Shown: positions 2 through 13,730, numbered from the stretch's first letter. The stretch is 64,000 nt of DNA from Myxococcota bacterium (GCA_036012755.1 DASCPX010000071.1:32001-96000); one strand, 5' to 3'. The notes: generated from the letters alone by a model not told the origin. Numbers and translations: made by a program.

Positions 2-1225
2 GAGCACGTCCGGGCGCTCATGGCCTGCCGCGCGAACGTGCTCGCCGCCGGCCTGTCCGGCTGCCGCCCAGAGGCCGCCGAGCGCCTGGTCGAGATGCTG
101 CGGGCGGACATCGTCCCGGTGGTACCCAGCCAGGGTTCGGTCGGCGCAGCCGGAGACCTCGCCCCTCTCGCCCACGTCGCGCAGGTCGCCTTCGGCTTGG
201 GAGGAGTGGCCCGGCTCGACGGCGTGGAGATGCCGGGGACCCAGGCGATCTCAGGTTTGTCGACCTACTCGCCTACCCCGAAGGAGGCCCTGTCCTTCAT
301 CAACGGGGCGACGCTCACGGTGGCGCTCGGGGCCCTGGCGGTGGACCGCGCCCAGCGGCTGTTGCGTGTCACTGAGAAGGCCCTGGCCATGAGCATGGAG
401 GTCGTGCAGGCCGACGCCCACTGTCTCGACGAGGCCGCCCTGGCCGCCCGCGGGCACTCCGGCGCCGTCTGGGTCGCTCGCCGCGTGCGGGCGCTGCTCC
501 GCGGCTCCGTCCTGGTCAACGAGGGTCGCTCTGCCGACGCCTTCTCCATCCGCTGCGCCCCGGCGGTGCTGGGCGCTGCAGACGATGCCCTCGAGTACGT
601 CGAGCGCGCCGTGATGCTCGAGCTCAACGGAGCCTGCGACAACCCGCTGGTCTTCGCGGACCGGGTCGTCGAGGCTGGCAACTTCCACGGCGCTCCGGTC
701 GCCCTGGCGCTGGACCACCTCAAGGTCGCCCTGACCCAGGTGGCGAGCATCGCCGAGCGCCGCATCTTCCGGCTCACCTATGGTCAGCTCACGGGCAACC
801 TGCCCAGCTTCCTGCTGGAAGGCGGCGGCGTCAACAGCGGCTTCATGCTCGCCCAGTACACGGCGGCCTCGCTGGTGAGCGAGATGAAGGGGCTGGCCCA
901 CCCCGCGAGCGTCGACAGCATCCCCACCGGCCAGCACCACGAGGACCACGTGCCCATGGGCCCGACCGCTGCCCGCGGCCTGCTGCGCATCGTCGACTGC
1001 TTCGAGCAGGTCGTGGCGCTGGAGCTGCTGGTGTCAGCCCAGGGCCTGGACTTCCGCCGGGACGGGCTCTCGTTCACCTCCGAGGGCGAGCCCATCCAGG
1101 GGGAGCGCGTGGAGCTGGCTCCGGCTGTGGAAGAGGTCTGGGCCGCGATCCGCCGAGTGGTCCCCCGCTGGACAGAGGACCGGGTGCTTCACAGGGACAT
1201 CGAGAGGGTAGCGGCGCTCATCTGA
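2..1225 (+). CDS. Aromatic amino acid ammonia-lyase (HAL/PAL) family protein, 5'-partial, with non-canonical active site
   Basis: Frame is open from the window edge (EHVRALMACRAN..G.SG.R). Family motifs: GSVGAAGDLAPLAH, KEALSFING, NGACDNPL, AGNFHG, SIAERR, NSGFMLAQYTAASLVSE, HPASVDS, EDHV. The MIO tripeptide reads AAG rather than ASG, so it is not called hutH. Confidence 0.9.
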   Translation, partial: EHVRALMACRANVLAAGLSGCRPEAAERLVEMLRADIVPVVPSQGSVGAAGDLAPLAHVAQVAFGLGGVARLDGVEMPGTQAISGLSTYSPTPKEALSFINGATLTVALGALAVDRAQRLLRVTEKALAMSMEVVQADAHCLDEAALAARGHSGAVWVARRVRALLRGSVLVNEGRSADAFSIRCAPAVLGAADDALEYVERAVMLELNGACDNPLVFADRVVEAGNFHGAPVALALDHLKVALTQVASIAERRIFRLTYGQLTGNLPSFLLEGGGVNSGFMLAQYTAASLVSEMKGLAHPASVDSIPTGQHHEDHVPMGPTAARGLLRIVDCFEQVVALELLVSAQGLDFRRDGLSFTSEGEPIQGERVELAPAVEEVWAAIRRVVPRWTEDRVLHRDIERVAALI

Positions 1226-3227
1226 CGAAGACGAGGATGTTGTCGTCCGCGACCTCGCCGTCGTTGTAGTCGCCCCAGGTCTTGTTGTACTCGGAGGTGT
1301 CGAAGCCGCGGTCCCCAGCGGCACCGGCCCAGGCGTTCATGACGCAGCAGGTCGACCAGCTGGACTGGCCGCCGATGCGGGCGTTCTCCGCCGTGGTGTA
1401 GCTGGTGGAGCTCATCCAGCCCTCGTTCGGGTCGCTGCAGTTGAGACCCACGGGGTCCATCGTGGCCTGGGTCAAGCGGTCCTCTGACCAGGAGGTGCAG
1501 TTCGAGGCGCAGTAGGACGCCGAGGGCGTGGTCGAGAAGACGTTGGAGAGCGTGTCGTTGACGTCGAGACCCTCGCAGAGGAAGTAGGCGCCGTCGTTCT
1601 TGTAGTAGACGTAGACATCGGTCACCTCGATGGTCGTCCAGCTCTCGTACTTGGTGGTGACGGCGATGTCGGTCGAGTAGCTCGGGAAGGTCGTCTCGTT
1701 TCGCAGGGTTGTGCTCTCCCAGGTCGCGTCCTGGGCGAGCAGCCAGGGGTCGTTCACGTCGTCGATGTTCGCGACCAGGGTCCAGCCCCCGCCCTCGCTG
1801 CTCATGTCGCAGAAGACCTCGAAGGCCGTGCCGGTGGCGTCCGGGTCGATCCAGTAGTTGCCGTCACTGGCCCCGGAGCGGCTGTCGAGGACGTCATCGC
1901 ATGACAGGGCCGAGCAGTCCTCGTCGCCCAGCACCTCCTCGTCGTTGTCGACCGTGCCGTCGCAGTCGTTGTCCGAACCGTCGCAGACCTCGGTCGCGCC
2001 GGTGTAGGCGTCGGCGTCCGTGTCGTCGCAGTCGTCGGAGTTCTCGACGTAGCCGCTGGGCTGGTCGCAGGCCTCGGTGCTCGTGCCGGAGTCGCCGTAG
2101 CCGTCCCCGTCGCTGTCGGCGTACCAGGTGCTGCTGGACGCGGAGCCCTCGTCGACGTCACCGTCGCAGTCGTCGTCGATGTCGTTGCAGACCTCCTCAC
2201 CGTCCGGGCTGACGTCGGCGTCGGTGTCGTCGCAGTCGTCGCTGTCGTCGACGTAGCCGCTGGGCTGCTCGCAGCTCTCCGTCGTGTACTCGGCGCTGCC
2301 GTAGCCATCGCCGTCGTAGTCGATGTACCAGGTGACGCCTGGGTTCTTGGAGGCGTCGGTGTCGTCGCAGTCGGTGTCGTCCTCGACGTAGCCGCTGGGC
2401 TGCTCGCAGCTGTCCACGCTGCTTGTGGCGTCGCCGTAGCTGTCGCTGTCGCTGTCGCGATACCAGGTGGTCGCGTCCACGGCGCCTGTGTCCGCGTCCC
2501 CGTCACAGTCGTTGTCGACCCCGTCGCAGATCTCGGTGGCGTTCGGCGAGATGGAGGCGTCGCCGTCGTCGCAGTCGGTGTCGTCGTCGGCGTAGCCGGT
2601 GGGCGTGTCGCAGGCCTCGGTCGTGAGATCCGCGCTGCCAGACCCGTCTCCGTCGGCGTCGACGTAGAAGGTCGTCTGGACGCCCTCGTCGACCGTGCCG
2701 TCGCAGTTGTCGTCGATCTCGTTGCACTCTTCGGAGGCCCCCGGGTAGACGCCGCCGTCGGTGTCGTCGCAGTCCGTGCTGTCGGCGACCGTGCCCTCCT
2801 CCCCGTCGCAGCTCTGGGACTCGGCGTCCGGATCGCCGTAGCCGTCACCGTCGGCGTCGACATACCAAAGGTCCCCCACGGCATCGTCGATCTCGCCGCT
2901 GCAGTCGTCGTCGAGGCCGTTGCAGGTCTCGGTCGCGCCCGGGTTCACCTCCGCGTCGAGGTCGTTGCAGTCGTCCTCTTCGAGGTAGCCGTCGCCGTCG
3001 AGGTCGTCGTCCGGTGTGGACTCGTCGCAGTCGTCGTCCTGCCCGTTGTAGGGGACCTCTGTGTTGCCGGGCTTCACGGTGTTGTTGAAGTCGTCGCAGT
3101 CCTCGTCCTCTGGTGAGCCGTCGCTGTCGTTGTCGACGATCTCGACGGGCTCGCTGTCGTCGATGAAGCCGCTGTCGACCGGGGTGTCCTTGTTTCTGCA
3201 GGCGATGCCGAGGAGGAGGGTGAGCAT
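1218..3227 (-). CDS. Lipoprotein with multiple Asp/Cys-rich putative metal-binding (MopE-type) repeats and a C-terminal fibrinogen-like domain
   Basis: Starts MLTLLLGIAC (lipobox-like). Repeated DCDD.D...PG..E.C..DDDCDG.VD and WY.D.DGDGYG units. GNYWIDPD...VFCDMSSEGGGWTLV marks a fibrinogen/intelectin-like domain start. Confidence 0.85.
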   Translation of the reverse strand: MLTLLLGIACRNKDTPVDSGFIDDSEPVEIVDNDSDGSPEDEDCDDFNNTVKPGNTEVPYNGQDDDCDESTPDDDLDGDGYLEEDDCNDLDAEVNPGATETCNGLDDDCSGEIDDAVGDLWYVDADGDGYGDPDAESQSCDGEEGTVADSTDCDDTDGGVYPGASEECNEIDDNCDGTVDEGVQTTFYVDADGDGSGSADLTTEACDTPTGYADDDTDCDDGDASISPNATEICDGVDNDCDGDADTGAVDATTWYRDSDSDSYGDATSSVDSCEQPSGYVEDDTDCDDTDASKNPGVTWYIDYDGDGYGSAEYTTESCEQPSGYVDDSDDCDDTDADVSPDGEEVCNDIDDDCDGDVDEGSASSSTWYADSDGDGYGDSGTSTEACDQPSGYVENSDDCDDTDADAYTGATEVCDGSDNDCDGTVDNDEEVLGDEDCSALSCDDVLDSRSGASDGNYWIDPDATGTAFEVFCDMSSEGGGWTLVANIDDVNDPWLLAQDATWESTTLRNETTFPSYSTDIAVTTKYESWTTIEVTDVYVYYKNDGAYFLCEGLDVNDTLSNVFSTTPSASYCASNCTSWSEDRLTQATMDPVGLNCSDPNEGWMSSTSYTTAENARIGGQSSWSTCCVMNAWAGAAGDRGFDTSEYNKTWGDYNDGEVADDNILVFVR

Positions 3228-3233
3228 GGGTCT

Positions 3234-3239
3234 ACTCTA
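3234..3239 (-). promoter_or_regulatory. Putative -10 box TAGAGT, 6 nt before ATG 3227 (leaderless-type)
   Basis: TANNNT with no SD in the spacer. Similar arrangements recur at other first genes. Confidence 0.5.
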
Positions 3240-3384
3240 CGGCACGGGCCTTGCACGGAGGCGGTCCAGTTCTCCCCAACCCGTCACCGAAGCGCACCAG
3301 CTCGCGCGGTTAGGCTCTCTCGCACCCAAGAGTGCGAAGGGCGCTACGCGCTCTCTGCCACCACCGCTTCACGCCGGATGCCCC

Positions 3385-6300
3385 ATGAAGCTGTTCGTTC
3401 GCCTGCCCGCTGAAGTGGCCTCTCTCGCCGAGAGCGTGCTGTCGACCGGGGCCATCCCCCTCATCGACCTCACCTCCAGCTGGACCGAGGAGGTCCATCC
3501 CGGCGCCTGGGTTCGCGTGCGTCCGGACCAGAAGGCCCCCGGAACTGGACCGGTCGTGCTCTGCAGCGCGGGAAGGAAGCCCCGCGGACGTCAGACCTGG
3601 CTCGAGGTGCGCGAGGCAAGACCGTGCCCGAAGAACTTCGAGGGCCTCTTCGTCGTCGGGCGCGAGGCCGGCGGCTTCTGCGGGAGCGAGGACGGCCTCT
3701 CCCTGCTCGATCAGTGCACCGGGAGGCTGGTCCTGGATGCCTCCGTCGGCCCCGACACCGCCGCGTCCGCCGCCGCCCTGGGAGCCGAAGGCGTGGTGCT
3801 CGCAGAGCAGCTCTGGGGGCTCAACGAGCTGGGGCTGGGGCCCCACTTGCGGCGCCTCGTGGAGCGCGCAACCGACACCTCGACCCATGTCGTCAACGGC
3901 TTTCGGGTCGCCGCGTCCCCGATCTCTCCGGCGATCCGACGCCTCGTCGCCGGGCTGGACGCCTACGAAGCGAGCGAGGGCTGGTTTGCCGCTGACGATC
4001 CGGTCGGCCTCGCCGTGCCCGCCGGTCAGGGCATCGCGCTGGCCCGCACCCTCGCCGAGCGCCACGGGGACCTCTGCGGCGTGCTGGACGCCTACGCGCG
4101 GGCTTGCGTCGAGTGGGAACAGCGCGTGGGCTCCGTCGTCGCCTGGCAGGACAGCTCGGCTCCTCGCGGGCGCACGTCCATCGCGCTGAGAGCCAGCAAC
4201 GGGCGCAGCTTCGTGGCCGACCCAAGCGGCGCCGTGGGCTCCGCGGTGCTCTGGCAGATCGCCGCCTGGGAGGGCCTCCCCATCACCGGCACGCCGCTGA
4301 TGGCGGCGGCAGCCGTCGGCGCACCGGTGCTCGCCCTACAAGGAGCGCTCGCGGATGTCCGCACCGTCTACACGCCGACGATCACCCCCGCGGACCCGGA
4401 GCCAGCCCCGGCGACGACCCCCGCTGTCGACGAGCCGGTGGCCATCGTCGGGCTCGGCTGCGTGCTGCCGCAGGCCCACGACGTCGCCTCCTTCTGGCGG
4501 AACGTCACCGGCGGCGTGAACTGCATCCGAGAGGTCCCCGAGGACCGCTGGGACCCGGCGCTGTTCTTCGACGCGGATCGCTCCGTCCCGGACAAGACCT
4601 ACGCGAAGGTCGGCGCCTTCGTCACGGACTTCCGGTTCGACAGCAAGAAGTACCGGATCCCGCCGAAGGTGGCGGCCTCGATCGACCCCGTCCAGAAGAT
4701 GGCGCTCGAGGCAGTCGGCCAGGCCCTCGAGGACGCCGGCGTCACGGGCGACTCCGCCATCGACCGATCCCGCGTCGCCGTCATCCTCGGCAACTCGATG
4801 GGCGGCGGCGAGTTCCGCGACAACTCCACGCTGCGGGTCTTCACCCCAGCCATGCAGGCGGCGCTCGCCGAGGTCCCGGAGTTCGCGGCCCTCCCCGACG
4901 AGATCCGGGAGGCAGTGCTCGATGGCTGGGTGACTCGCTTCAAGCAGGGCTTCCCGAGCATCACAGAGGACTCGATGCCCGGCGAGCTCTCGAACGTCAT
5001 CGCCGGACGCATCGCCAACGCCTTCGATCTCGGCGGTCCGAACTTCACCGTCGACGCGGCCTGCGCGTCGTCCATGGCCGCCATCCAGGCAGCCGTGAAG
5101 GGTCTCCAGGACGGTGACTTCGACCTCGTCGTCACCGGCGGCTCCGACCGCACGATGGACCCCCCGACTTTCACAAAGTTCTCGAAGATCGGGGCCTTGT
5201 CCCCTGATCATTCGAGTCCTTTCGATGCCTCCGCAGATGGCTTCGTCATGGGCGAGGGCTGTGGCATCCTCGTCCTCAAGCGCCTCTCTGACGCCGAGGG
5301 TGATGGCGACCGGGTCTACGCGGTGTTCCAGGGCTTCGGCGCGAGCTCTGATGGAAAGGGCAAGGGCATCACCGCCCCGAACATCGAGGGGCAGAAGCGC
5401 GCGCTGAGGCGTGCCTATGCCGACGCCGGGCTCGATCCCGTCGAGGTCGACCTCATGGAGTGCCACGGCACCTCGACGGTCGTCGGCGACAAGATCGAGG
5501 TCGAGGCCCTCACAGAGGTCGTCGGCGCGGGGCGCCGTGGGGCCCGCGGCCCCATCCGCATCGGCTCCGTGAAGAGCCAGATCGGCCACCTCAAGAGCGC
5601 CGCCGCGGCCGCCTCCATCATCAAGGTCGCGCTCGCCCTGCACCACAAGACGCTGCCTCCGAGCATCAACTTCCGGGAGCCGCGCGAGGACCTGCCCCTT
5701 CAGCAGATCCCCCTCCAGGTCCAGACCAGCGCCGAGCCCTGGCTCGCCGAGGGCTGGCGGCGCGCCGCCGGTGTGTCCGCCTTCGGCTTCGGCGGGACGA
5801 ACTTCCACGCCGTCCTGGTCGAGCACATCCCGGGCCTGGTGCCAGCGGCAGATGCGCCTGCCCGCAGCGCCAGGGTCGAGCTCGTGGAGCGGGATCTACC
5901 TGTCGGCATCTGGGCCGTCAGCGCCCAGAACCTCTCCGGCCTGTCACGGGCCCTCGACCGCATCGAGCGCGGCGAGAAGGCCCCGTGGAAGCCCTCGATG
6001 CCAGTGCGCCTGGCTGCGGCCGCCGACACCATCGAGGAGCGTCAGGACCAGATCGCCAGAGCCCGCAAGGCCATCTCCAAGGGCAGGGGTTTCGACCTGC
6101 TGCGCATGAGGTCCATCCACCTGGAGGACGGCCCCTGCGACGGCAAGCTCGCCCTCCTCTTCACAGGCCAGGGAAGCCAGTACCTCGGCATGGGCCTCGA
6201 TCTCGAGGACCGCTTCCCCATCGTCGGGGCGACCTTCGACGAGGCCGACAGCATCTGTGTCCGCGAGCTCGGCCACAGCATCCGCGACTTCATCCGCGGG

Positions 6301-9300
6301 CTCACCGGCGAAGAGACGACGGACTTCGAGCGCCTGCGCGCAACGGAGATCTCCCAGCCGGCGACCCTGGCCGTCGACATCGCCCTGTTGCGTCTGCTCA
6401 ACGGCTACGGGCTCTACCCAGATGTCGTCGCCGGCCACAGCCTCGGCGAGTACGGGGCGCTCGTGGCCGCGGGTGCGATGAGCTTCCGCGACTCGCTGCT
6501 GGCCGTGACGGCGCGCGGGCGCGAGATGGCGCACATCCAGCTCGAGGACCCGGGGGCCATGGCCTCGATCGCGGCCAAGAGCAGGCTGGTGGCCGAGGTG
6601 CTCGTCGAGATCCCCGGCTACGTCGTCGCTGCCAACAAGAACAGCCCCAAGCAGACCGTCATCGCTGGCGCCACCGACGCCGTCGAGGCCGCCTGCGAGT
6701 CCTTCCGCAGCCGCGGGATCACCGTCTTCCCGCTTCCGGTCAGCCACGCCTTCCACAGCGCGATCGTCGCGCCGGCATCCGAACCCCTCGGCGAGGTGCT
6801 CGCGAAGCTGGACATCCGGGCGCCCCAGCGACCGATCACCACCAACGTCGACTCCCGCTGGTACCCGGACGATCCCGAGAAGATCGTCCAGCTTCTCGCC
6901 CGCCAGGTGGCCAGCCCGGTCGAGTGGGTCAACCAGATCGAGCGCATGTACGCCGACGGCACCCGCATCTTCGTGGAGTGCGGTCCCAAGCGTGCCCTCA
7001 CCGGCTTCACCTCGGCCATCCTCAAGGACCGCCCTCACCGCTCGCTCTCGACGAACCACCCGAAGCTCGGCGGTGAGCGCAGCTTCCGGGACTCCCTCGC
7101 CGGGCTCATCGCGATGGGCTTCCCGATCGACGCCGACGCCACCGAGGAGATCCCGGAGCTCCTCAGCGACCCCCGGCCGCGCTTCGCCACCAGCACGGCG
7201 CTGTCCGCCGTCACACCCGACGACGAGCTCCAGGCCACCCCCTACATCGTCGAGAACGTGCTCGAGGTCATCGGCGACCGGGTCGGAGTCGCTGGAGACG
7301 AGCTCGACATCGACATGGAGTTCGAGGCCGATCTCGGCATCGACACCGTCCGGCAGGCCGAGCTCGTCGCGGAGCTGCGCAGCCGCTTCCACCTTGAGCG
7401 CGAGGCCGGCTTCCTGTTGTCCGACCACCCCTCGATCCGCGCGCTCATCGACTACTTCGCCGCCCGCCTCGGCCAGTACGAGCCCCACTGGGATCGCTCG
7501 GCTCCAGCGGTGGCGACACAGCCTCGCCGGCGAGCGGAGCCCACCCCCACCCCCAGCGAGCCCTCCGTGGGTCCCGACGCCGTCCGGAACTTCCTCGAGA
7601 GCGTCGCCACGGCCGGCCTCGACGGTCTGGACGCCGGACACTTCGCCCAGGCACTGCTCCCAGCCATCCAGAGTCTCCTGACCGCCAGCTGGGCGGCCTT
7701 CGACGCCGCCCGTGTCGAGCCCGATCCGGAACCCGCCGGGGCCACCCTGGCCACGCAGCCGTCGGCCTCGGCGCGCATCGTCTGCACCGGAGCGGCCATC
7801 GGCCTCCCGGGCGGAGAGAGGGTCTTCGACGAGGACAACATCCAGTCCATCCTCCGCGGCGACCAGCGCATCGAGCGCATCGACGCGGGCTACCGCGAGC
7901 GCTTCCTCACAAAGAACCTCGTCCGCCTCGTGAAGGACGCCGCCGGTCAGGGCTCCTTCCTGCCCGTGACCGACGACGACCAGGTCATCCAGCTCGCCGG
8001 ACGCGCCGGCCACTTCGACCTCGCCGAGTACGGCGTGTCGGAGAGCTGGATCCTCGCGCTGGATCGCACGACGCAGCTGGCCTTTGCTGCCGGCCTGGAC
8101 ACTCTCCGCGACGCCGGGATCCCGCTGGTCCGCACCTACCACGAGACCGGCTCCGGCAAGCGCGTCGCGACCGGCTGGGCCCTGCCCGAGCCCCTCCGCG
8201 ATGGCACGGGGATCATCTTCGCCAGCGCCTTCCCGGGCCTCGACAAGCTGGTGGAGAAGATCCTCAGCGGCGGCGTCGACCACGACGGCCACTACGACCG
8301 TCGCTTCCTCTTCCAGGTCCTGTCGATGGGCCACTCCCAGTTCGCCCAGTTCATAGGGGCGCGCGGCCCGAACACCCAGGTGAACTCTGCCTGCGCGAGC
8401 ACGACCCTCGCGGTCGCCCTGGCCCAGGACTGGATCCGCCTCGGCCGCTGCGAGCGCGTGCTCGTCCTGGGCGCAGACGATGTCACGACGGACACCATGC
8501 TCGAGTGGATGGCCAGCGGCTTCATGGCCGCGGGGGCCGCGACGACCGAGGCCAACGTCGCAGACGCCGCGTTGCCCTTCGACCGCCGACGCCACGGGAT
8601 GATCCTCGGAATGGGCGCGGTGGGGCTGATGCTGGAGCGTCGCGAGGATGCGCTCGCCCGGGGCGTGATCCCCATCGCCGAGCTCCTCGGCAGTCGCATC
8701 GCGAACTCCGCCTTCCACGGCTCCCGCCTGGACGCGGAGCACATCGCCTGCGAGGTCGATCTCCTGGTCGCGGAGGCCTGCCAGAAGGAGGGCGCCAAGG
8801 CCGAAGACATGGCCAAGCGCACCATGTTCATGTCCCACGAGACCTACACGCCGGCCCGAGGAGGCAGCGCCGGCGCGGAGATCGCAGCCTTGCGGCGGGC
8901 CTTCGGGGATGCCGCGAACCAGGTCGTGGTCTCCAACACGAAGGGCTTCACGGGCCACGCCATGGGCGCCTCGATCGAGGACGCCATCGCCGTCAAGGCG
9001 CTTCAGTACCGCACGGTGCCGCCCATCCCGAACCTGAAGGAGCCCGATCCGGAGCTCGGCGACCTCCACCTGTCCGAGGGCGGGCACCACGAGGTCGACT
9101 ACGCCTTGCGCCTCGCCGCCGGTTTCGGCTCCCAGCTGGCTGTCAGCCTCTGGAAGAAGATCGCCAAGGGCGACCAGCGGACCTCTGACCGCGACACCCG
9201 GGAGGCCTGGCTCAGCGAGGTCACCGGCTACGACACCGTCGAGGTCGTGCTCGAGCAGCACACGCTCCGGGCGGTCGGGAGCGCCCCGGCGGCAGCCACC

Positions 9301-12300
9301 CCGGCGACTGCCGCCCCGGCCAGAGAGCCAGCATCGACCGACTCGATGCTGCAGCACCTCGTGGCGGTGGTGGCAGAGAAGACGGGCTACGACCCGGAGG
9401 AGATCGAGCCCGACTACGAGCTCGAGGCCGACCTCGGCATCGACACGGTCAAGCAGGCCGAGATCTTCAGCGAGGTCCGTGACCACTACGGGGTCGAGCG
9501 CGACGAGACCTTCGTCCTAGCCGAGTACCCGACCATCCAGGCGCTGGCGACCTGGCTCGCTTCGAAGGCACCTGGGCAGCCGACGCCCGAGGTGCTCTCC
9601 GAGTCCACCCTGACCCCTGAGCGCACCGTCAGCGGTGACGAGGTCCTCCAGCACCTCCTCGGCGTGATCTCCGAGAAGACCGGCTACGACCTCGAGGACC
9701 TCGATCCGGAGTACGAGCTCGAGGCCGATCTCGGCATCGACACGGTCAAGCAGGCCGAGATCTTCAGCGAGGTCCGCGCAACCTACGGTGTCGAGCGCGA
9801 CGACGACTTCGTCCTCGCCGAGTACCCGACGATCGCAGCGCTCGCCGGCTGGATGTCGAGCAAAGCAGACATCGATCCCGACTCCCCGACCCTGGATGCG
9901 CCTGCGATGCCGGACATCACGCCGGTCACCGCCAACAACGAGGTCCTCGACTACCTCCTGGGAGTGATCGGAGACAAGACGGGCTACGACCGCGACGACC
10001 TCGAGATCGACTACGAGCTCGAGGCCGACCTCGGCATCGACACGGTCAAGCAGGCCGAGATCTTCGGCGACGTTCGCGACCACTTCGGCGTGGAGCGCGA
10101 CGACAGCTTCGTCCTCGCCGAGTTCCCGACCATCGGCAAGCTGGCCGACTGGCTGGCCTCGCGCATCGGCGCCGCCCCTGCGGTCGTCCACCACGAGATC
10201 GAGGGTGACGACTACAGCGAGCCCGTCGAAGACGCGGTCAGCGAGCTGCCGACGAGCTTCTGGGTCAGGCGCCCGGTCCGCGTCGGGCGGCCCAGCATGA
10301 TCGAGGGCAACGTCCGCGGTCGTGCCATCAAGATCCTCGGAGACGGCCCCGTCCAGGAAGCTCTCGTAGAGGAGATCGCACGCCAGGGCGGCATGCTCGC
10401 GATGGGTGACCTGGCGCCGGACGCCGTCATCGACGTGGCGAGCGACGTGCTCGAGGCCTTCGCCGAGGCCAGGAAGCTGGTCGACGTGCCGGTGCGTGAC
10501 TGGCTGTGCCTCACGATGCTCGGCGAGCACGAAGGCATGACCCCTGACCAGGCCTTCTTCGACGGCAGCCGCTGCGGCTTCACGAAGGCCCTCGGCCGTG
10601 AGTGGAAGCAGTGCCACGCGCGGGTCGTCGACGCATCCCCCGACGTCGATCCCGACAGCATCGCCCGCATCCTCTGCGGGGAGCTCGCCACCCCCGACGG
10701 CGCGGTGGAGATCTTCCACGCCGCCAGCGGCACGCGCGAGGTCATGGAGCTCGCCGTAGAGGCCCACCCGCCGACCGGCCGATGCCCGGCCTCGAACCAG
10801 GTGGTCATCGTCACCGGCGGGGGCCGAGGCATCACCGCGTCGGTCGCCACGGAGCTCGCGCGGCGGGCCGGGAGCACCCTGGTCCTCGTGGGCCGCTCGC
10901 CGATGGGCGAGAGCCCCCTCGATGTGCGAAAGGAGAAGAAGCGGATCAAGAAGGGGCTGAAGGCGGCCGACCAGAAGCCGAGCCCCGCGAACGTCGAGCG
11001 ACTCCTCTGGCCCCTACGCAAGGCAGAGGAGATCCGGACCACCGTCGAGGAGCTGCGCGCCCTCGGCAGCACGGTCGAGTACAGGACCTGTGACATGGCG
11101 GACGCGCCCGCGGTCAAGGCCCTCGTGGCCGACGTGACCGCCCGCTTCGGCCGGGTGGACGGCTGCATCCACGGCGCTGGCGTAGAGGAGAGCCGTTTGA
11201 TCCAGGACAAGGACGCGGCGGCCTTCCACCGCGTCTTCGACGGCAAGGCCCTGGGTGGCCTCGCCTTGGCAGAGGCCCTCCCGGAAAAGGCCTGGCTCCT
11301 CTCCATGGGCTCTGTCGCTGGTCGCTTCGGGAACGAGGGACAGGTCGACTACAGCGCCGCGAACGAGGCGCTGGCGCAGGTCTGCCTCGCCCGGCCGCGC
11401 TCCCTGCACGTGGACTGGACGGCCTGGGCGGATGTCGGAATGGCCGTGCGTGGCGGAATGCAGCACCTGTTGGAGTCCCGCGGCCTCGAGCTGATGCCCG
11501 CGCTCGCCGGCGCCTCTCTGGCCGTCGACCTCATCGCGAGCCATGTCACGGGCGAGATCGTCGTGGCCGGCAAGCTCGGCGACTTCGTGCCCTCGCCCAA
11601 CCACCCCAAGCTCGACAGCATGGAGCTCGACGGCGACACCATCGTGGCGCGCTACACGCTGGAGCCCGAGCGCGACCCCTGGATCGACGATCACGCCATA
11701 GACGGAAAGCCCGTGCTTCCAGGCGTCATGGGGATCGAGCTGATGGCGGCTGCTGCCTCCCTGGCTCGCCCCGGCATGGTCTACACGGGGGTCGAGGACG
11801 TGAAGTTCGAGCGACCGGTGAAGGTCTATCGAAACTCGCCGGTGCACCTCGAGATGCGCGCTCAGCCCCAGGATGACGGGCGGGTGTGGTGCTCGCTGAC
11901 CAGCGAACGCAGGACCAGGGCAAAGAAGCTCATCCGCACGGAGCACTTCTCGTGCTCCATCCTGCTGGACCAGCGTCCGCAGATCGACCAGCTGCCGCCG
12001 GCCTTCTGGCCAGAAGACTCGATCTCGCGAGGCGACATCTACCGCCGCTTCTTCCACGGACCCGCCTTCCAGGTCCTCCGCGGCGCCGATGGGGTGACCC
12101 GGGACGGCCTCCAGTGCAGCGGACGCGTAGACCACGCCTACATCGCGGAGGGCATGCTGACCTCGCCGCTGGCCCTCGAGGCGGCATTCCAGGCGGCCGG
12201 ACTGCACGCCATGGTCTCCGACGGCGCGATGGCGCTCCCCCAATCGATCGAGGCCCTGTGGGTCTCGCGCAGGGTGCGGGATGGCGAGGATCTCGTCCTC

Positions 12301-13119
12301 ACCGTGCTCCACCGCGCCGACGGCGCCTACGACGTGGACGTGGACGGTGAAGACGACCGCCTGATGAGTCTCCGTGGTTTCCGCATGATCGAGAAGGGTC
12401 CGCTGCCCGACGGCCGCAGGTTCAGCGAGCCCGACGAGGGCTGGGCGGACACCGCCTTCGGCACCATGACCGTCGTGCAGACAGAGGGCGTCCAGGCCTG
12501 CCTCCGCAGCGCGGAGGTCGGAGAGGACACCACTGGGTGGCTCAGCGAAGAGGAGCTCGCGGAGCTCCGGTCCCGCGGCACCGAGAAACGCGTCGGCGAC
12601 CGCATCGCTGGCCGCATCGCCGCCAAGCGCGCCGTGGGAGCCCTCACCGGCGCCGACCCGCTGACGATGGAGATCTCGAACCTCGCCAGCGGCGAGCCGG
12701 TCGTACGGATCGACGGCGAGCCAGGTCCGCAGATCTCGATCTCCCACAGCGGTGGGCGCGCCGTGGCGCTGGCCAGCCGCGCCGAACGGGTGGGGATCGA
12801 CCTGGAACAGATCGAGGAGCGCCACCCTGCCTTCCTCGACGAGTGGTTCAGCGAGGACGAGCGGACACTGTTCGCTGGTGACGCCGCGCTCATCACCACC
12901 GCGTGGGCCGCGAAGGAGGCCGTGCTGAAGGCACTCGGACGAGGGATGGCCCTCGATCCGCGACAGATCGAGATCCGCGCCGTCGTGGCCGGTCGAGTGG
13001 AAGTCATCCTGCGCGACGACGTCGCCGCTACGCACGCGGCCCTCGGCGGGGGGGAGCTCACGCTCTCTGCCCGGATCGAGGGCGGCACGGTTTTGGTAGA
13101 GGCGCGTATCGCGGCATGA
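3385..13119 (+). CDS. Iterative type I PKS/FAS-like megasynthase (PfaA/HglE-like), 3244 aa: FabK/NMO-like, KS, AT, ACP, KS, ACP, ACP, ACP, KR, DH, PPTase
   Basis: KS1 has DAACASS (Cys 5062-5064), HGTST and GHLKSA. AT has GQGSQ, GHSLG and HAFH (malonyl-type). Four (L/F)EADLGIDTV.QAE ACP motifs. KS2 has NSACAST (Cys 8392-8394), SHETYT and GHAMG. KR has TGGGRGI and YSAAN. DH has HAIDGKPVLPG. PPTase has SISHS, GIDLE and WAAKEAVLKA. ATG 3385 preferred because the 3061 extension overlaps the opposite gene. Confidence 0.93.
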   Translation: MKLFVRLPAEVASLAESVLSTGAIPLIDLTSSWTEEVHPGAWVRVRPDQKAPGTGPVVLCSAGRKPRGRQTWLEVREARPCPKNFEGLFVVGREAGGFCGSEDGLSLLDQCTGRLVLDASVGPDTAASAAALGAEGVVLAEQLWGLNELGLGPHLRRLVERATDTSTHVVNGFRVAASPISPAIRRLVAGLDAYEASEGWFAADDPVGLAVPAGQGIALARTLAERHGDLCGVLDAYARACVEWEQRVGSVVAWQDSSAPRGRTSIALRASNGRSFVADPSGAVGSAVLWQIAAWEGLPITGTPLMAAAAVGAPVLALQGALADVRTVYTPTITPADPEPAPATTPAVDEPVAIVGLGCVLPQAHDVASFWRNVTGGVNCIREVPEDRWDPALFFDADRSVPDKTYAKVGAFVTDFRFDSKKYRIPPKVAASIDPVQKMALEAVGQALEDAGVTGDSAIDRSRVAVILGNSMGGGEFRDNSTLRVFTPAMQAALAEVPEFAALPDEIREAVLDGWVTRFKQGFPSITEDSMPGELSNVIAGRIANAFDLGGPNFTVDAACASSMAAIQAAVKGLQDGDFDLVVTGGSDRTMDPPTFTKFSKIGALSPDHSSPFDASADGFVMGEGCGILVLKRLSDAEGDGDRVYAVFQGFGASSDGKGKGITAPNIEGQKRALRRAYADAGLDPVEVDLMECHGTSTVVGDKIEVEALTEVVGAGRRGARGPIRIGSVKSQIGHLKSAAAAASIIKVALALHHKTLPPSINFREPREDLPLQQIPLQVQTSAEPWLAEGWRRAAGVSAFGFGGTNFHAVLVEHIPGLVPAADAPARSARVELVERDLPVGIWAVSAQNLSGLSRALDRIERGEKAPWKPSMPVRLAAAADTIEERQDQIARARKAISKGRGFDLLRMRSIHLEDGPCDGKLALLFTGQGSQYLGMGLDLEDRFPIVGATFDEADSICVRELGHSIRDFIRGLTGEETTDFERLRATEISQPATLAVDIALLRLLNGYGLYPDVVAGHSLGEYGALVAAGAMSFRDSLLAVTARGREMAHIQLEDPGAMASIAAKSRLVAEVLVEIPGYVVAANKNSPKQTVIAGATDAVEAACESFRSRGITVFPLPVSHAFHSAIVAPASEPLGEVLAKLDIRAPQRPITTNVDSRWYPDDPEKIVQLLARQVASPVEWVNQIERMYADGTRIFVECGPKRALTGFTSAILKDRPHRSLSTNHPKLGGERSFRDSLAGLIAMGFPIDADATEEIPELLSDPRPRFATSTALSAVTPDDELQATPYIVENVLEVIGDRVGVAGDELDIDMEFEADLGIDTVRQAELVAELRSRFHLEREAGFLLSDHPSIRALIDYFAARLGQYEPHWDRSAPAVATQPRRRAEPTPTPSEPSVGPDAVRNFLESVATAGLDGLDAGHFAQALLPAIQSLLTASWAAFDAARVEPDPEPAGATLATQPSASARIVCTGAAIGLPGGERVFDEDNIQSILRGDQRIERIDAGYRERFLTKNLVRLVKDAAGQGSFLPVTDDDQVIQLAGRAGHFDLAEYGVSESWILALDRTTQLAFAAGLDTLRDAGIPLVRTYHETGSGKRVATGWALPEPLRDGTGIIFASAFPGLDKLVEKILSGGVDHDGHYDRRFLFQVLSMGHSQFAQFIGARGPNTQVNSACASTTLAVALAQDWIRLGRCERVLVLGADDVTTDTMLEWMASGFMAAGAATTEANVADAALPFDRRRHGMILGMGAVGLMLERREDALARGVIPIAELLGSRIANSAFHGSRLDAEHIACEVDLLVAEACQKEGAKAEDMAKRTMFMSHETYTPARGGSAGAEIAALRRAFGDAANQVVVSNTKGFTGHAMGASIEDAIAVKALQYRTVPPIPNLKEPDPELGDLHLSEGGHHEVDYALRLAAGFGSQLAVSLWKKIAKGDQRTSDRDTREAWLSEVTGYDTVEVVLEQHTLRAVGSAPAAATPATAAPAREPASTDSMLQHLVAVVAEKTGYDPEEIEPDYELEADLGIDTVKQAEIFSEVRDHYGVERDETFVLAEYPTIQALATWLASKAPGQPTPEVLSESTLTPERTVSGDEVLQHLLGVISEKTGYDLEDLDPEYELEADLGIDTVKQAEIFSEVRATYGVERDDDFVLAEYPTIAALAGWMSSKADIDPDSPTLDAPAMPDITPVTANNEVLDYLLGVIGDKTGYDRDDLEIDYELEADLGIDTVKQAEIFGDVRDHFGVERDDSFVLAEFPTIGKLADWLASRIGAAPAVVHHEIEGDDYSEPVEDAVSELPTSFWVRRPVRVGRPSMIEGNVRGRAIKILGDGPVQEALVEEIARQGGMLAMGDLAPDAVIDVASDVLEAFAEARKLVDVPVRDWLCLTMLGEHEGMTPDQAFFDGSRCGFTKALGREWKQCHARVVDASPDVDPDSIARILCGELATPDGAVEIFHAASGTREVMELAVEAHPPTGRCPASNQVVIVTGGGRGITASVATELARRAGSTLVLVGRSPMGESPLDVRKEKKRIKKGLKAADQKPSPANVERLLWPLRKAEEIRTTVEELRALGSTVEYRTCDMADAPAVKALVADVTARFGRVDGCIHGAGVEESRLIQDKDAAAFHRVFDGKALGGLALAEALPEKAWLLSMGSVAGRFGNEGQVDYSAANEALAQVCLARPRSLHVDWTAWADVGMAVRGGMQHLLESRGLELMPALAGASLAVDLIASHVTGEIVVAGKLGDFVPSPNHPKLDSMELDGDTIVARYTLEPERDPWIDDHAIDGKPVLPGVMGIELMAAAASLARPGMVYTGVEDVKFERPVKVYRNSPVHLEMRAQPQDDGRVWCSLTSERRTRAKKLIRTEHFSCSILLDQRPQIDQLPPAFWPEDSISRGDIYRRFFHGPAFQVLRGADGVTRDGLQCSGRVDHAYIAEGMLTSPLALEAAFQAAGLHAMVSDGAMALPQSIEALWVSRRVRDGEDLVLTVLHRADGAYDVDVDGEDDRLMSLRGFRMIEKGPLPDGRRFSEPDEGWADTAFGTMTVVQTEGVQACLRSAEVGEDTTGWLSEEELAELRSRGTEKRVGDRIAGRIAAKRAVGALTGADPLTMEISNLASGEPVVRIDGEPGPQISISHSGGRAVALASRAERVGIDLEQIEERHPAFLDEWFSEDERTLFAGDAALITTAWAAKEAVLKALGRGMALDPRQIEIRAVVAGRVEVILRDDVAATHAALGGGELTLSARIEGGTVLVEARIAA

Positions 13120-13157: not shown

Positions 13158-13730
13158 GTGGAGGCCCGCATCTTCGACAAGAACGTCTCGCTCATCCGGG
13201 TCCACACGCCACGGGAGCTCTTGCCCTACCGGGCCAGCTTCGTGGGCTGCTACCAGACGGTCTGGAGCGAGCCGCCCTACGACGAAGAGTTCTACCCCTA
13301 CGAAGCCGAGGCCGTGCTGCGGCGTCAGCTCCAGTCGCCAGGCCACATCACGCTGCTCGCGGTCCGTGGCCTCTCCACCGTGGTCGGCTTCGGCTTCGCC
13401 GCGCCGCTCAAGAGCCGCCCGGAGGTGGCGCGGCACATGGGCGGTCTCCTCCTCGCCGAGCACACGATGTACCTCGCCGAGCTGGGCGTCCTGCGCGACT
13501 ACCGGGGTCTGGGGCTGGGCGGGGCGATGGTCGAAGAGCGCCTCGCGGCGATCGACCGACAGCTCTTCGCCCACGCCCTGTTGCGGACCTCGGCGACCAA
13601 GAACGCTGGCTACGAGATGTACCTCTCCCGAGGCTTCGACGACATCGGGGTGTACATGGAGGTCCCGTCTCGGCGCATCGGAGGCACCGTCCGCACCGAC
13701 CGTCGGTTGTTCTTGAGCAAAGTCCTCTGA
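13158..13730 (+). CDS. GNAT family N-acetyltransferase
   Basis: YLAELGVLRDYRGLGLGGAM acetyl-CoA-binding motif A, N..GYEMY..RGF motif B, and GAGGAG RBS before the GTG. Confidence 0.85.
   Translation: MEARIFDKNVSLIRVHTPRELLPYRASFVGCYQTVWSEPPYDEEFYPYEAEAVLRRQLQSPGHITLLAVRGLSTVVGFGFAAPLKSRPEVARHMGGLLLAEHTMYLAELGVLRDYRGLGLGGAMVEERLAAIDRQLFAHALLRTSATKNAGYEMYLSRGFDDIGVYMEVPSRRIGGTVRTDRRLFLSKVL

What the first reader, a model, noticed from the sequence alone, without database searches (positions are those of the whole stretch)
7321..10060. All four ACPs of the megasynthase have Thr instead of Ser at the phosphopantetheine site, next to an in-cis PPTase
Seen: DLGIDTV(R/K)QAE in every ACP, with Thr codons ACC 7345-7347, ACG 9445-9447, ACG 9742-9744 and ACG 10042-10044. 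Four copies and two different codons, including the divergent ACP1, make a sequencing error unlikely. KS, AT, KR and DH catalytic motifs are intact. Known: carrier proteins are primed on the Ser of the (L)G.DS motif. Inference: the fused C-terminal PPTase may phosphopantetheinylate Thr, giving an orthogonal carrier/PPTase pair.
Basis: partly seen in the sequence, partly recalled or inferred. Interest (0 to 1): 0.85.

Follow-up and report, generated by a model that had tools for sequence, protein, structure and literature searches.

The report
Carrier domains using threonine, not serine
A giant lipid/polyketide-making enzyme in a marine myxobacterium carries threonine where every textbook carrier domain has the cofactor-bearing serine, and this turns out to be the rule in hundreds of species, each with its own matching activating enzyme.

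Summary
All four ACPs of the 3,244-aa megasynthase (3385-13119, +) read DLGIDTV(R/K)QAE. The Thr sits exactly where solved ACPs carry the phosphopantetheine Ser, at the first residue of helix II. It is not an error: metagenome contigs from other samples and studies show no variant, and all four Thr codons occur across relatives. It is not a local oddity either. Of the 120 best long homologs, 114 have Thr at every ACP. A one-genome-per-species scan gave over 490 loci in many bacterial phyla and in Thermoplasmatota archaea. In a 301-genome sample of the window's phylum, 76 genomes carry such arrays. All 41 genomes examined hold a PPTase of one distinct Sfp-type lineage: 17 fused, 21 within 10 kb, 3 elsewhere. 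In three archaeal MAGs the fused PPTase and the Thr-ACPs are the only PPTase and carriers found. Strict orthogonality is not supported. Three orthologs have Ser in ACP1 beside Thr-ACPs, and near-relative PPTases sit with Ser-ACPs. My best reading is that Thr is the real attachment site, primed by a co-evolving PPTase lineage that accepts Thr and probably Ser. Ten searches of the paper library found no description.

The parts
3385..13119 (+). Megasynthase gene (3,244 aa plus stop). Domain order: FabK-like N-domain, KS1, AT, ACP1, KS2, ACP2-4, KR, DH, PPTase.
   Evidence: ORF 3061..13119. The database copy P0004 (100% identical, 3,244 aa) starts at the Met at 3385. GC3 is 0.90. Domains from Pfam.
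3385..4150 (+). Conserved N-terminal domain with a FabK/nitronate-monooxygenase-like fold. Its motif is G-R-E-A-G-G-F, without the His seen in the aligned FabK.
   Evidence: No Pfam or NCBIfam hit. Conserved in 8 orthologs. Weak profile hit to a FabK chain, 9pl0 (E 0.019). AlphaFold model with residues 1-140 at pLDDT 68-94 in blocks of ten (overall mean 62.9). Best Foldseek hits are FabK and NMO (E 1.9e-5, TM 0.43-0.47).
4432..5673 (+). KS1 (ketosynthase) with active-site Cys and two His motifs
   Evidence: PF00109 and PF02801 at residues 458-871 of P0002. Motifs DAACASS, ECHGTST and SQIGHLKS are present.
6157..7002 (+). Acyltransferase (GHSLGE, SHAFHS)
   Evidence: PF00698 at residues 1033-1314. 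Motifs located.
7258..7455 (+). ACP1, motif DLGIDTVRQAE, Thr codon ACC at 7345-7347
   Evidence: PF00550 match at C71:39258-39455. Translation. Codon.
7738..9210 (+). KS2, a second ketosynthase-fold domain with Cys, His and His present (approximate limits)
   Evidence: Second stretches of PF00109 and PF02801. PF08545 at residues 1774-1816. Motifs NSACAST, SHETYTP and GFTGHAMG.
9355..9558 (+). ACP2, DLGIDTVKQAE, Thr codon ACG at 9445-9447
   Evidence: PF00550 match.. Structure model.
9652..9852 (+). ACP3, DLGIDTVKQAE, Thr codon ACG at 9742-9744
   Evidence: PF00550 match..
9949..10155 (+). ACP4, DLGIDTVKQAE, Thr codon ACG at 10042-10044
   Evidence: PF00550 match..
10804..11430 (+). Ketoreductase (TGGGRGIT; YSAAN)
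   Evidence: PF08659 at residues 2582-2790. Motifs.
11626..11904 (+). Dehydratase, N-terminal hot-dog part (HAIDGKPVLPG)
   Evidence: PF21089 at residues 2856-2948. Motif.
12400..13116 (+). C-terminal two-lobed Sfp-type PPTase domain (ISISHSGG, GIDLEQ, WAAKEAVLK)
   Evidence: PF01648 at 57.4 bits. Aligns to Sfp 1QR0/4MRT residues 46-185. Lies in a starred clade of 15 fused PPTases. No NCBIfam model reaches its cut-off.
13158..13730 (+). GNAT acyltransferase gene directly downstream on the same strand; a conserved partner
   Evidence: PF00583. A GNAT sits in the same position in 6 of 7 orthologous loci checked.

Best explanation
The four ACPs belong to a large and old clade of PfaA-like (PUFA-synthase-like) iterative megasynthases. 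In this clade the phosphopantetheine attachment residue is Thr (motif D-L-G-[IV]-D-T-V-K-Q-A-E) rather than Ser. I infer that the Thr hydroxyl is the real attachment site. It would be primed from CoA by a dedicated Sfp-type PPTase lineage that co-occurs with these synthases; here that PPTase is fused to the C-terminus. The mechanism would be the usual one: Mg2+ held by the Asp and Glu of GIDLE, and a Glu of W-x-x-K-E-A acting as base. This lineage probably accepts both Thr and Ser, so the pair is 'dedicated' rather than strictly orthogonal. The synthase has no recognisable active ER or TE, and a conserved GNAT follows it. It most likely makes a polyene-like or hydroxylated acyl chain. Shown here: the sequence facts, the fold, the conservation and the co-occurrence. 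Inferred: the modification of Thr, the specificity of the PPTase and the product.
For: The Thr lies at the Ser position of solved ACPs and at the N-terminus of helix II. There is no alternative conserved Ser: the only other Ser in helix II of ACP2 and ACP3 is Gly in ACP4. KS1, AT, KS2, KR and DH motifs are intact, so the enzyme needs a holo carrier. Conservation is strong. Of 120 long homologs, 114 are Thr-only, with 592 Thr sites; of 120 shorter hits, 118 are Thr-only. Across 75 genome loci there are 204 Thr and 3 Ser sites, using codons ACG 103, ACC 90, ACA 6 and ACT 5. In the phylum sample 76 of 301 genomes carry the motif arrays, against 1 hit for the reversed control pattern. Ser and Thr interchange at the same site. 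ACP1 is Ser in L019, L020 and L021. These form a 100* clade nested in a 95* clade of Thr ACP1s. They use two Ser codon families (TCC, AGC) that are bridged by ACC. PPTase link: 41 of 41 genomes have a PPTase of one lineage, 38 of them fused or within 10 kb. These PPTases separate from the housekeeping PPTases of the same genomes. One clade of the 52 is not rejected (AU p 0.63). In the phylum sample the figures are 72 of 76 against 8 of 225. In archaeal MAGs G018, G026 and G036 the only PF01648 match is the fused domain and every PF00550 match is a Thr-ACP of the same protein. The PPTase keeps the Sfp catalytic motifs. E. coli ACP S36T is reported as not modifiable (PMC3340395, passages). That fits a need for a special PPTase.
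Against: No chemical evidence for Thr-linked phosphopantetheine was available or found. Homolog counts are biased, because the query itself is Thr-type. The locus scan used a pattern containing Thr, so it could only return Thr loci. Clustering of a PPTase next to the synthase is also usual for Ser-type pfa clusters (PMC3098273), so co-location alone does not show Thr specificity. The E<=1e-40 threshold and the PPTase group were chosen after I had seen the scores and the tree. Related genomes are not independent. MAG incompleteness could hide other PPTases or carriers in the archaeal cases. Exceptions in the phylum sample: G212 and G259 have the motif but no PPTase match, and G293 and G340 have only weaker matches. 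G118 and G133 have the PPTase but no ACP match.
Confidence: 0.7

Rival explanations
1. Strictly orthogonal pair. Only the dedicated or fused PPTase can prime Thr-ACPs, it primes only them, and housekeeping PPTases cannot. This would insulate the synthase from the rest of the cell.
For: A dedicated PPTase lineage is present in 41 of 41 genomes and 72 of 76 in the phylum sample. E. coli ACP S36T is stated to be unmodifiable (PMC3340395). The window's genome has only one other PPTase (Sfp-type, contig C91), while all its other carriers are Ser-type, including a classical PfaA array.
Against: Ser ACP1 and Thr ACP2/3 coexist in L019 and L020, which also carry the fused PPTase. PPTases scoring about 144 bits on the same profile are fused to synthases with one Ser-ACP (LSIDSIKRIEILG) in G192 and G286. 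Archaeal G028 has a Ser carrier but only the fused PPTase. These cases argue that the lineage also handles Ser. Whether housekeeping PPTases reject Thr-ACPs was not tested.
Confidence: 0.25
2. Thr is a functionally neutral variant of Ser that any broad-range Sfp-type PPTase can prime. The neighbouring PPTase is then just the usual pfaE-like cluster member, with no special adaptation.
For: Ser and Thr interchange in ACP1. PPTase genes cluster with Ser-type pfa synthases too (PMC3098273). Catalytic motifs of the fused PPTase are ordinary.
Against: If the variant were neutral, Ser and Thr should be mixed. Instead the arrays are uniformly Thr (592 of 592 sites in 114 proteins; 204 of 207 in the loci) and are kept through synonymous change. 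The PPTases form their own lineage with clade-specific conserved residues: an Arg at 96% and a Trp at 98% against variable or Phe in the others, and a Gly at 98%. The three genomes without a local PPTase still keep one of this lineage elsewhere.
Confidence: 0.15
3. The Thr domains are not carriers. They stay apo, with a structural or regulatory role, and a trans ACP is used.
For: The canonical Ser is absent, and S36T abolishes modification in E. coli ACP.
Against: The arrays are tandem with an ACP fold and an almost invariant helix-II motif across phyla. No other carrier was found in three archaeal MAGs that still keep the fused PPTase. All catalytic domains are intact.
Confidence: 0.05
4. Sequencing or assembly artefact, or a pseudogene.
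For: None found. The repeats do break short-read assemblies: one contig skips 297 bases between ACP copies.
Against: Contigs from independent runs agree at all four codons. There is one open frame of 3,352 codons with GC3 of 0.90. Hundreds of homologs share the motif.
Confidence: 0.01

Closest known systems
PfaA of bacterial PUFA synthases (TIGR02813), with tandem ACPs carrying DLGIDSIKRVEIL
   Same: KS-AT-tandem ACP-KR-DH order and an iterative fatty-acid/polyketide logic. The ACP motif frame D-L-G-I-D-x-[IV]-K is shared. The same genome also holds a classical Ser-type array.
   Different: Thr replaces Ser, and helix II reads TVKQAE rather than SIKRVE. There is a second KS inside the same protein, an extra ACP1, and a fused PPTase. 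The score of 932 bits is below the TIGR02813 cut-off of 1010.1. Classical ACPs form a separate clade (100*).
'Type R' secondary lipid synthase of Shulse and Allen 2011 (PMC3098273): KS-MAT-CLF-ACP(3-6)-KR with a downstream PPTase; product unknown
   Same: The domain order is the same, with a PPTase next to the synthase. The taxa overlap (Acidobacteria, Elusimicrobia, Chloroflexi) with my Thr-type loci. Its PPTase has the 'hShxH' type P1b' motif; here the motif is ISISH.
   Different: The paper's main text has 0 occurrences of 'threonine' or 'serine'. I could not check whether its listed organisms have Thr. Here the second KS keeps its Cys, and the PPTase, ACP1 and a FabK-like domain are fused in.
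Sfp-type (group II) PPTases: Sfp, EntD, HetI, PptT
   Same: Two-lobed domain of about 230 aa. Motifs align to Sfp: ISISHSG to FNISHSG, GIDLEQ to GIDIEK, WAAKEAVLK to WSMKESFIK. PF01648 is over its cut-off.
   Different: No NCBIfam PPTase model reaches its cut-off. The domain belongs to a separate lineage with its own conserved residues. It is fused in cis, and its presumed acceptor is Thr.
Enediyne PKSE (KS-AT-ACP-KR-DH-PPTase), a self-priming iterative polyene synthase; recalled from my own knowledge, not from a call
   Same: A PPTase in cis at the C-terminus of a PUFA-like iterative synthase without ER, giving a polyene. G192 and G286 may be of this kind, with a single Ser ACP and a related fused PPTase.
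   Different: PKSE has one Ser-ACP and one KS. Membership was not tested here, because no family model for it came up.
Stigmatella aurantiaca Sg a15 'polyketide synthase' AIS92916.1 (P0154). I recall that it may belong to the dawenol polyene PKS (Osswald et al. 2014, J Biotechnol 191:54), but I did not see that paper.
   Same: It carries five Thr-ACPs (DTVKQVE and DTITQIE) followed by a KR. It comes from a cultured, genetically tractable myxobacterium.
   Different: It is a split system of 1,269 aa, with only 42% identity over the ACP region. The link to dawenol, and whether that paper mentions Thr, could not be checked because the DOI is not held.
E. coli ACP S36T mutant
   Same: Thr at the attachment position of an ACP.
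   Different: It is an engineered mutant, stated to be unmodifiable and non-functional (PMC3340395, passages). Here Thr is the conserved natural state of a large family.

Membership tests
Acyl/peptidyl carrier protein (PF00550 PP-binding) | Sequence profile match over the curated cut-off | tested here: met
   4 stretches, 120.1 bits against a cut-off of 20.8. Each ACP is also found over the cut-off in the genome search.
Acyl/peptidyl carrier protein (PF00550 PP-binding) | Four-helix-bundle ACP fold | tested here: met
   ACP2 model at pLDDT 91.6. Foldseek TM 0.80-0.87 to solved ACPs.
Acyl/peptidyl carrier protein (PF00550 PP-binding) | Ser at the N-terminus of helix II in the D-S-[LIV] motif as the phosphopantetheine site | tested here: not met
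   Thr in all four ACPs. Thr37 of ACP2 is the first residue of helix II.
Acyl/peptidyl carrier protein (PF00550 PP-binding) | Covalent 4'-phosphopantetheine on that residue | not testable with these tools
   Needs mass spectrometry. It is inferred only from conservation, intact partner domains and PPTase co-occurrence.
PfaA, polyketide-type PUFA synthase (TIGR02813) | Whole-protein score over NCBIfam's cut-off | tested here: not met
   932 bits against a cut-off of 1010.1. It is the best-scoring family, but the best stretch covers only model positions 6-884 of 2582.
PfaA, polyketide-type PUFA synthase (TIGR02813) | Tandem ACPs with the DSIKRVEIL-type motif, and partner genes pfaB, pfaC and pfaD | tested here: not met
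   The motif is DTVKQAE. Neighbours are a GNAT, an unknown ORF and a GDSL lipase; no pfaB, pfaC or pfaD lies in the window around the gene.
Sfp-type 4'-phosphopantetheinyl transferase (PF01648) | Profile match over the cut-off | tested here: met
   57.4 bits against a cut-off of 25; 62.6 bits in the genome search.
Sfp-type 4'-phosphopantetheinyl transferase (PF01648) | Mg2+/CoA-binding and catalytic motifs (G-x-D-x-E; W/F-x-x-K-E-[AS]-x-x-K; S-H-S). The residue roles are recalled from the Sfp literature. | tested here: met
   Aligned to Sfp 1QR0/4MRT. These residues are invariant or nearly so in the 48-sequence alignment A2: G132, D134, E136, W169, K172, E173, K177.
Sfp-type 4'-phosphopantetheinyl transferase (PF01648) | Transfers Ppant to the carrier; acceptor residue Ser | not testable with these tools
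   The complex predictor was unavailable. Activity on Thr needs an assay.
Shulse and Allen 'Type R' secondary lipid synthase | KS-MAT-CLF-ACP(3-6)-KR in one protein, plus an associated PPTase | tested here: inconclusive
   The order matches. The PPTase is present but fused. The paper's 'CLF' position here holds a KS with its Cys. There is an extra ACP1. The paper's KS phylogeny was not reproduced.

The most novel reading that the evidence does not exclude
O-phosphopantetheinyl-threonine is a widespread natural protein modification. Hundreds of bacterial and some archaeal species would then run megasynthases whose carriers are primed on Thr by their own PPTase lineage. Housekeeping PPTases, and possibly ACP phosphodiesterases, would not act on these carriers. 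The Thr linkage would thus insulate and stabilise a polyene or secondary-lipid pathway, forming a naturally orthogonal carrier/PPTase system.
Probability: 0.3. Interest if true: 0.88.

Novelty: new variant of a known kind. Interest (0 to 1): 0.76.

Why it matters
Ser is treated as the invariant attachment site of every acyl or peptidyl carrier protein. Motif rules and active-site checks assume it, and S-to-T is used as a 'dead' ACP control. A large natural family with Thr would add a new modified residue. It would also mean that automated checks may call these carriers inactive. It points to a PPTase lineage that can work on a secondary alcohol. If housekeeping PPTases cannot use Thr-ACPs, the pair is a ready-made orthogonal labelling and pathway-insulation tool. 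If they can, the 'dead' control needs re-thinking. The family is common: 76 of 301 sampled genomes of the phylum, many other phyla, and Thermoplasmatota archaea in which it is the only carrier/PPTase system found. Its products are essentially unknown. The question can be tested directly with a small ACP and a PPTase domain of about 230 aa.

Tried and rejected
Sequencing error is rejected (conservation).

Literature. Ten full-text searches found no paper with the motif (DTVKQAE, GIDTVK, LGIDT, GVDTVK, IDTVKQ) or describing Thr as a Ppant site. The library holds only CC-licensed PMC papers and bioRxiv, so absence there is weak. The dawenol paper's DOI is not held. 'Dawenol' does not occur in PMC13291983 or PMC8436480.

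Earlier notes of this scan. Four look-ups returned nothing relevant. The single note returned was about an unrelated threonine-metabolism module.

RNA: no RNA holder was listed for this stretch.

Active-site explanation for Thr acceptance. I listed clade-specific PPTase residues but cannot place them relative to the acceptor without coordinates, so I make no mechanistic claim from them.

G271, a large-genome myxobacterium, was checked as a possible Stigmatella relative. It shows only about 30% identity to P0184, so it was dropped.

G118 and G133 have a PPTase match without any ACP match. I fetched the regions, but my ORF and motif filter did not resolve the gene, so they remain unexplained.

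hhalign of the N-domain against the Lokiarchaeal homolog matched only the start of the KS. BLASTP gave a weak 91-residue match (E 4e-4).

I could not test whether cyanobacterial HglE or the organisms listed for 'Type R' carry Thr.

Full report
**What is in the window.**
The finding lies inside one long gene, ORF 3061..13119 on the + strand. The identical database copy, P0004, has 3,244 aa and starts at the Met at 3385. The window has 69% G+C, and the gene has GC3 of 0.90, as expected for a real gene.

Pfam gives this order: KS, AT, one PP-binding domain, a second KS, three PP-binding domains, KR, DH (N-terminal hot-dog part) and a PF01648 PPTase at the very C-terminus. The catalytic motifs I looked for are all present:
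- KS1: Cys, His and His.
- AT: GHSLGE and SHAFHS.
- KS2: Cys, His and His.
- KR: YSAAN.
- DH: HxxxGxxxxP.
- PPTase: ISISHSGG, GIDLEQ and WAAKEAVLK.

The best NCBIfam family is PfaA (TIGR02813). It scores 932 bits, below its cut-off of 1010.1.

The first ~250 residues match no family but are conserved in eight orthologs. Residues 1-140 of an AlphaFold model reach pLDDT 68-94 in blocks of ten, with an overall mean of 62.9. The model finds FabK enoyl-ACP reductases and nitronate monooxygenases as best folds (E 1.9e-5, TM 0.43-0.47). A weak profile hit to a FabK chain aligns GREAGGF with G-M-E-S-G-G-H. The domain therefore looks like an ER-fold domain that lacks that His.

**The observation.**
Translation of 7321-10060 shows DLGIDTVRQAE once and DLGIDTVKQAE three times. 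The Thr codons are ACC 7345-7347 and ACG at 9445, 9742 and 10042.

In phmmer alignments to solved carriers (PigH, AcpM and others), the Thr is paired with the Ser of their D-S motif. ACP2 folds with pLDDT 91.6. Helix II is residues 37-51, and the invariant Thr is residue 37. The model matches solved ACPs at TM 0.80-0.87.

Logan contigs of run X5, which is not flagged as a possible source, cover all of 7200-10200 without any other letter at the four codons. Runs X7, X8 and X12, from other studies, cover parts of it. The only differences listed are at 9411-9417.

**It is a family trait, not a local oddity.**
A search with the ACP2-4 region found 5,312 proteins at E<=0.001 among 7,999 scored candidates. 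Of the 120 listed, 114 have Thr at every ACP motif (592 sites). Six are classical DSIKRVE proteins (42 Ser sites). Twenty-four have a C-terminal PPTase motif. Among the 120 best shorter proteins, 118 are Thr-only (526 sites), one is Ser-only and one has no motif. These lists are biased toward the query's own type.

The 75 loci kept come from Myxococcota, Actinomycetota, Acidobacteriota, Chloroflexota, Gemmatimonadota, Elusimicrobiota and Thermoplasmatota or Methanobacteriota archaea, by their record titles. In these loci the motif has 204 Thr and 3 Ser. Of the motifs, 187 are exactly DLGIDTVKQAE. The Thr codons are ACG 103, ACC 90, ACA 6 and ACT 5. Thr is therefore kept through synonymous change.

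In an even sample of 301 genomes of the window's phylum, the degenerate DNA pattern for G-[IVM]-D-T-V-K-Q occurs in 76. It is usually in arrays spaced 300-400 bases apart. The reversed control pattern hit once. Within the window's own family, 8 of 9 genomes have it.

Thr arrays also occur in cultured myxobacteria: Stigmatella aurantiaca, S. erecta, Corallococcus, Myxococcus stipitatus and Hyalangium.

**Ser and Thr interchange at this very site.**
In three orthologs (L019, L020, L021; 66-71% identical in the best ACP segment), ACP1 reads DSIKQAE while ACP2 and ACP3 read DTVKQAE. In a tree of ACP domains these three Ser-ACP1s form a clade (100*). That clade is nested in a starred clade (95*) with Thr-ACP1s of L022, L026 and L027, inside the ACP1 group that holds the window's ACP1. 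The tree has few columns and used a quick search.

Their Ser codons are TCC (L019) and AGC (L020, L021), two codon families that are connected through ACC, a Thr codon. I read this as at least one, and probably two, Thr/Ser exchanges. It argues that the site needs a hydroxyl residue, which is what an attachment site would need.

Classical DSIKRVE ACPs are one separate, long-branched clade (100*).

**The PPTase link.**
The window's genome is 96% complete in 250 contigs. It has only two PF01648 matches: the fused domain and a 268-aa Sfp/PptT-like gene on contig C91. Its other 12 PP-binding matches all have Ser. They include an AcpP-like protein, NRPS/PKS carriers and a classical PfaA-type array on two contig ends.

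I searched PF01648 in 41 genomes that hold Thr-ACP loci. I compared coordinates by hand and, for the ORFs, by an HMM. The results were:
- In 17 genomes the PPTase is fused to the synthase. In one of these it sits on a KR-DH-PPTase piece.
- In 21 genomes it lies within the 10-kb flanks.
- In 3 genomes (G002, G013, G031) there is none in the locus.

I built an HMM from 28 local PPTases. It scores fused or neighbouring PPTases that were not in the training set at about 148-209 bits, apart from a few truncated, split or divergent ORFs. Most PPTases elsewhere in the same genomes score about 21-122 bits. The three exceptions are L129 (208 bits), L141 (222 bits) and L157 (158 bits). They come from exactly the three genomes without a local copy.

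In a tree of 100 PPTase domains, 40 of 45 'elsewhere' PPTases and 3 extra local ones fall on one side of a branch (SH-aLRT 90). The fused and neighbouring ones fall on the other side, together with L129, L141, L157 and two short long-branch fragments. With fragments removed, holding the 52 associated PPTases together gives a slightly better likelihood than the free tree (AU p 0.63). The group was named after I had seen the first tree.

A profile of 48 such PPTases (A2) was run on the same 301-genome sample. It matches at E<=1e-40 in 72 of the 76 genomes with the Thr pattern. Of the other four, G293 has 1.4e-37 and is fused, G340 has 4.4e-30, and G212 and G259 have no match. It also matches in 8 of the 225 genomes without the pattern. 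I chose the threshold after seeing the scores, and kin are not independent. The eight break down as follows:
- G177, G267 and G317 show truncated megasynthase frames in fragmented assemblies.
- G278 has a short 583-aa frame, and only classical Ser ACPs were found in it.
- G192 and G286 have a single Ser ACP (LSIDSIKRIEILG); in G286 it lies about 5 kb upstream of the PPTase on the same contig.
- G118 and G133 have no ACP match.

**A natural experiment in archaea.**
In MAGs G018, G026 and G036 the only PF01648 match is the fused domain. Every PF00550 match lies in the same megasynthase frame and is Thr-type. If these MAGs are near complete, which is not known, a PPTase is being kept whose only possible clients are Thr-ACPs.

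G028 has in addition one Ser carrier (DLGVDSIDWLEI) in a 911-aa frame, with still only the fused PPTase.

**How it most likely works.**
The fused domain aligns with Sfp across both lobes and keeps the SHS, GxDxE and WxxKE[AS]xxK motifs. These are invariant or nearly so in alignment A2. From what is established for Sfp-type enzymes (recalled), the acidic residues hold Mg2+ and the CoA diphosphate, and the Glu of KE[AS] activates the acceptor hydroxyl.

I infer the same chemistry on the Thr hydroxyl. The lineage has its own conserved residues that the other PPTases lack: an Arg shortly after GxDxE at 96%, a Trp at 98% where most others have Phe, and a Gly at 98% after the KEA helix. I cannot place these relative to the acceptor.

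The Ser ACP1 coexists with Thr-ACPs in L019-L021, and L019 and L020 also carry the fused PPTase. Relatives of the PPTase sit with Ser-ACPs. I therefore think the lineage accepts both residues.

Whether ordinary PPTases reject Thr-ACPs is open. The one datum I could read is that E. coli ACP S36T 'cannot be post-translationally modified' (PMC3340395, passages).

Why Thr is kept is unknown. Two ideas fit: insulation from housekeeping PPTases or phosphodiesterases, or a more elimination-resistant secondary phosphodiester. Both are my inferences from general chemistry, not results.

**What the synthase makes.**
There is no TE domain and no convincing active ER. A GNAT gene follows directly on the same strand in the window and in 6 of 7 orthologous loci checked. 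A polyene-like or hydroxylated acyl chain released by, or onto, an acceptor of the GNAT is a reasonable guess. It is only a guess.

**Comparison with what is known.**
The architecture is closest to the uncharacterised 'Type R' secondary lipid synthases of Shulse and Allen: KS-MAT-CLF-ACP(3-6)-KR plus a PPTase. I read section 7 and other passages of that paper. Its main text never uses the words threonine or serine.

It also resembles enediyne PKSE, which has a PPTase in cis (recalled).

One Thr-ACP protein, AIS92916.1 of S. aurantiaca Sg a15, may belong to the published dawenol polyene PKS. This is recalled and the paper was not seen. If so, a Thr-ACP synthase already has a genetically linked product, and that paper should be checked for any remark on the Thr.

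Ten literature searches found no description of the motif or of Thr-linked phosphopantetheine. Subscription journals are not covered.

**Verdict.**
The link to a dedicated PPTase is supported by co-occurrence and phylogeny. 'Fused' and 'orthogonal' are not general properties of the family. Modification of Thr remains an inference, at confidence about 0.7.

I rate it a new variant of a known kind, with high interest. It questions the assumed invariance of the carrier-protein Ser, and a simple bench experiment can test it.

Noticed in passing
window 13158-13730 (+); L024:13725-14438, L027:13416-13988, L034:13647-14294, L035:14510-15094, L036:13743-14330, L055:14424-15161: A GNAT acetyltransferase gene directly follows the megasynthase on the same strand in the window and in 6 of 7 orthologous loci. 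L032 has a biotin carrier plus a carboxyltransferase there instead. Since the synthase has no TE, the GNAT may be the off-loading or tailoring partner.
   Followed up: partly
window 3385-4150 (+): The N-terminal domain has no family match but a FabK/nitronate-monooxygenase-like fold (Foldseek E 1.9e-5). Its motif is GREAGGF, where the aligned FabK has G-G-H. It may be a degenerate enoyl reductase.
   Followed up: partly
own genome contigs C133:17921-18406 and C154:157-360 (L010, L012, L017): The same genome also encodes a classical Ser-type PUFA-synthase ACP array (DLGIDSIKRVEIL), broken at contig ends. Ser-type and Thr-type tandem-ACP synthases therefore coexist in one organism that has only two PPTases.
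   Followed up: partly
own genome contig C91:5102-5380 (L002:1312-2118, -): The only other PF01648 match is a 268-aa PptT/Npt/EntD-like PPTase. No AcpS-sized PPTase was found in this 96%-complete assembly.
   Followed up: partly
L019, L020, L021 (ACP1 at residues about 1250-1380 of the megasynthase): ACP1 has Ser (DSIKQAE), encoded by TCC in L019 and by AGC in L020 and L021. These two Ser codon families are one step each from the Thr codon ACC.
   Followed up: yes
P0154 (AIS92916.1), P0184 (ADO69379.1), P0128, P0162, P0163, P0205, P0220, P0237: Cultured Cystobacterineae (Stigmatella, Corallococcus, Myxococcus stipitatus, Hyalangium) have proteins of about 1,200 aa with 3-5 Thr-ACPs that alternate between two motif variants (DTVKQVE and DT[IV]TQ[IVL]E), followed by a KR. 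One fragment was annotated 'heterocyst glycolipid synthase'.
   Followed up: partly
G192:C31 and G286:C13:382126-388018 (L163, L165): Megasynthases with a single Ser ACP (LSIDSIKRIEILG). In G286 a PPTase related to the Thr-associated lineage (about 144 bits) lies about 5 kb downstream on the same contig. They may be PKSE-like polyene synthases.
   Followed up: partly
G118:C63:2481-3170 and G133:C241:9779-10486 (L170, L171): Two genomes of one genus have a strong match to the Thr-associated PPTase profile (E about 1e-56) but no ACP match to the Thr-ACP profile. This is unexplained.
   Followed up: partly
window 9432-9730: One metagenome contig (run X8) joins across 297 bases, exactly one ACP repeat. 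This is either collapse of the tandem ACP repeat in short-read assembly or a strain with one ACP fewer.
   Followed up: no
window 1218-3227 (-) and 32871-34556 (-): Two proteins combine MopE-type Cu-binding repeats with fibrinogen-C / fibrillar-collagen C-terminal-like regions. An aromatic amino-acid lyase gene lies at 2-1225 (+).
   Followed up: no
L082:15805-16536 (-) and L093:3702-4436 (+): Two Thr-ACP loci carry a second neighbouring PPTase. It groups with the 'elsewhere' Sfp-type PPTases rather than with the Thr-associated lineage.
   Followed up: no
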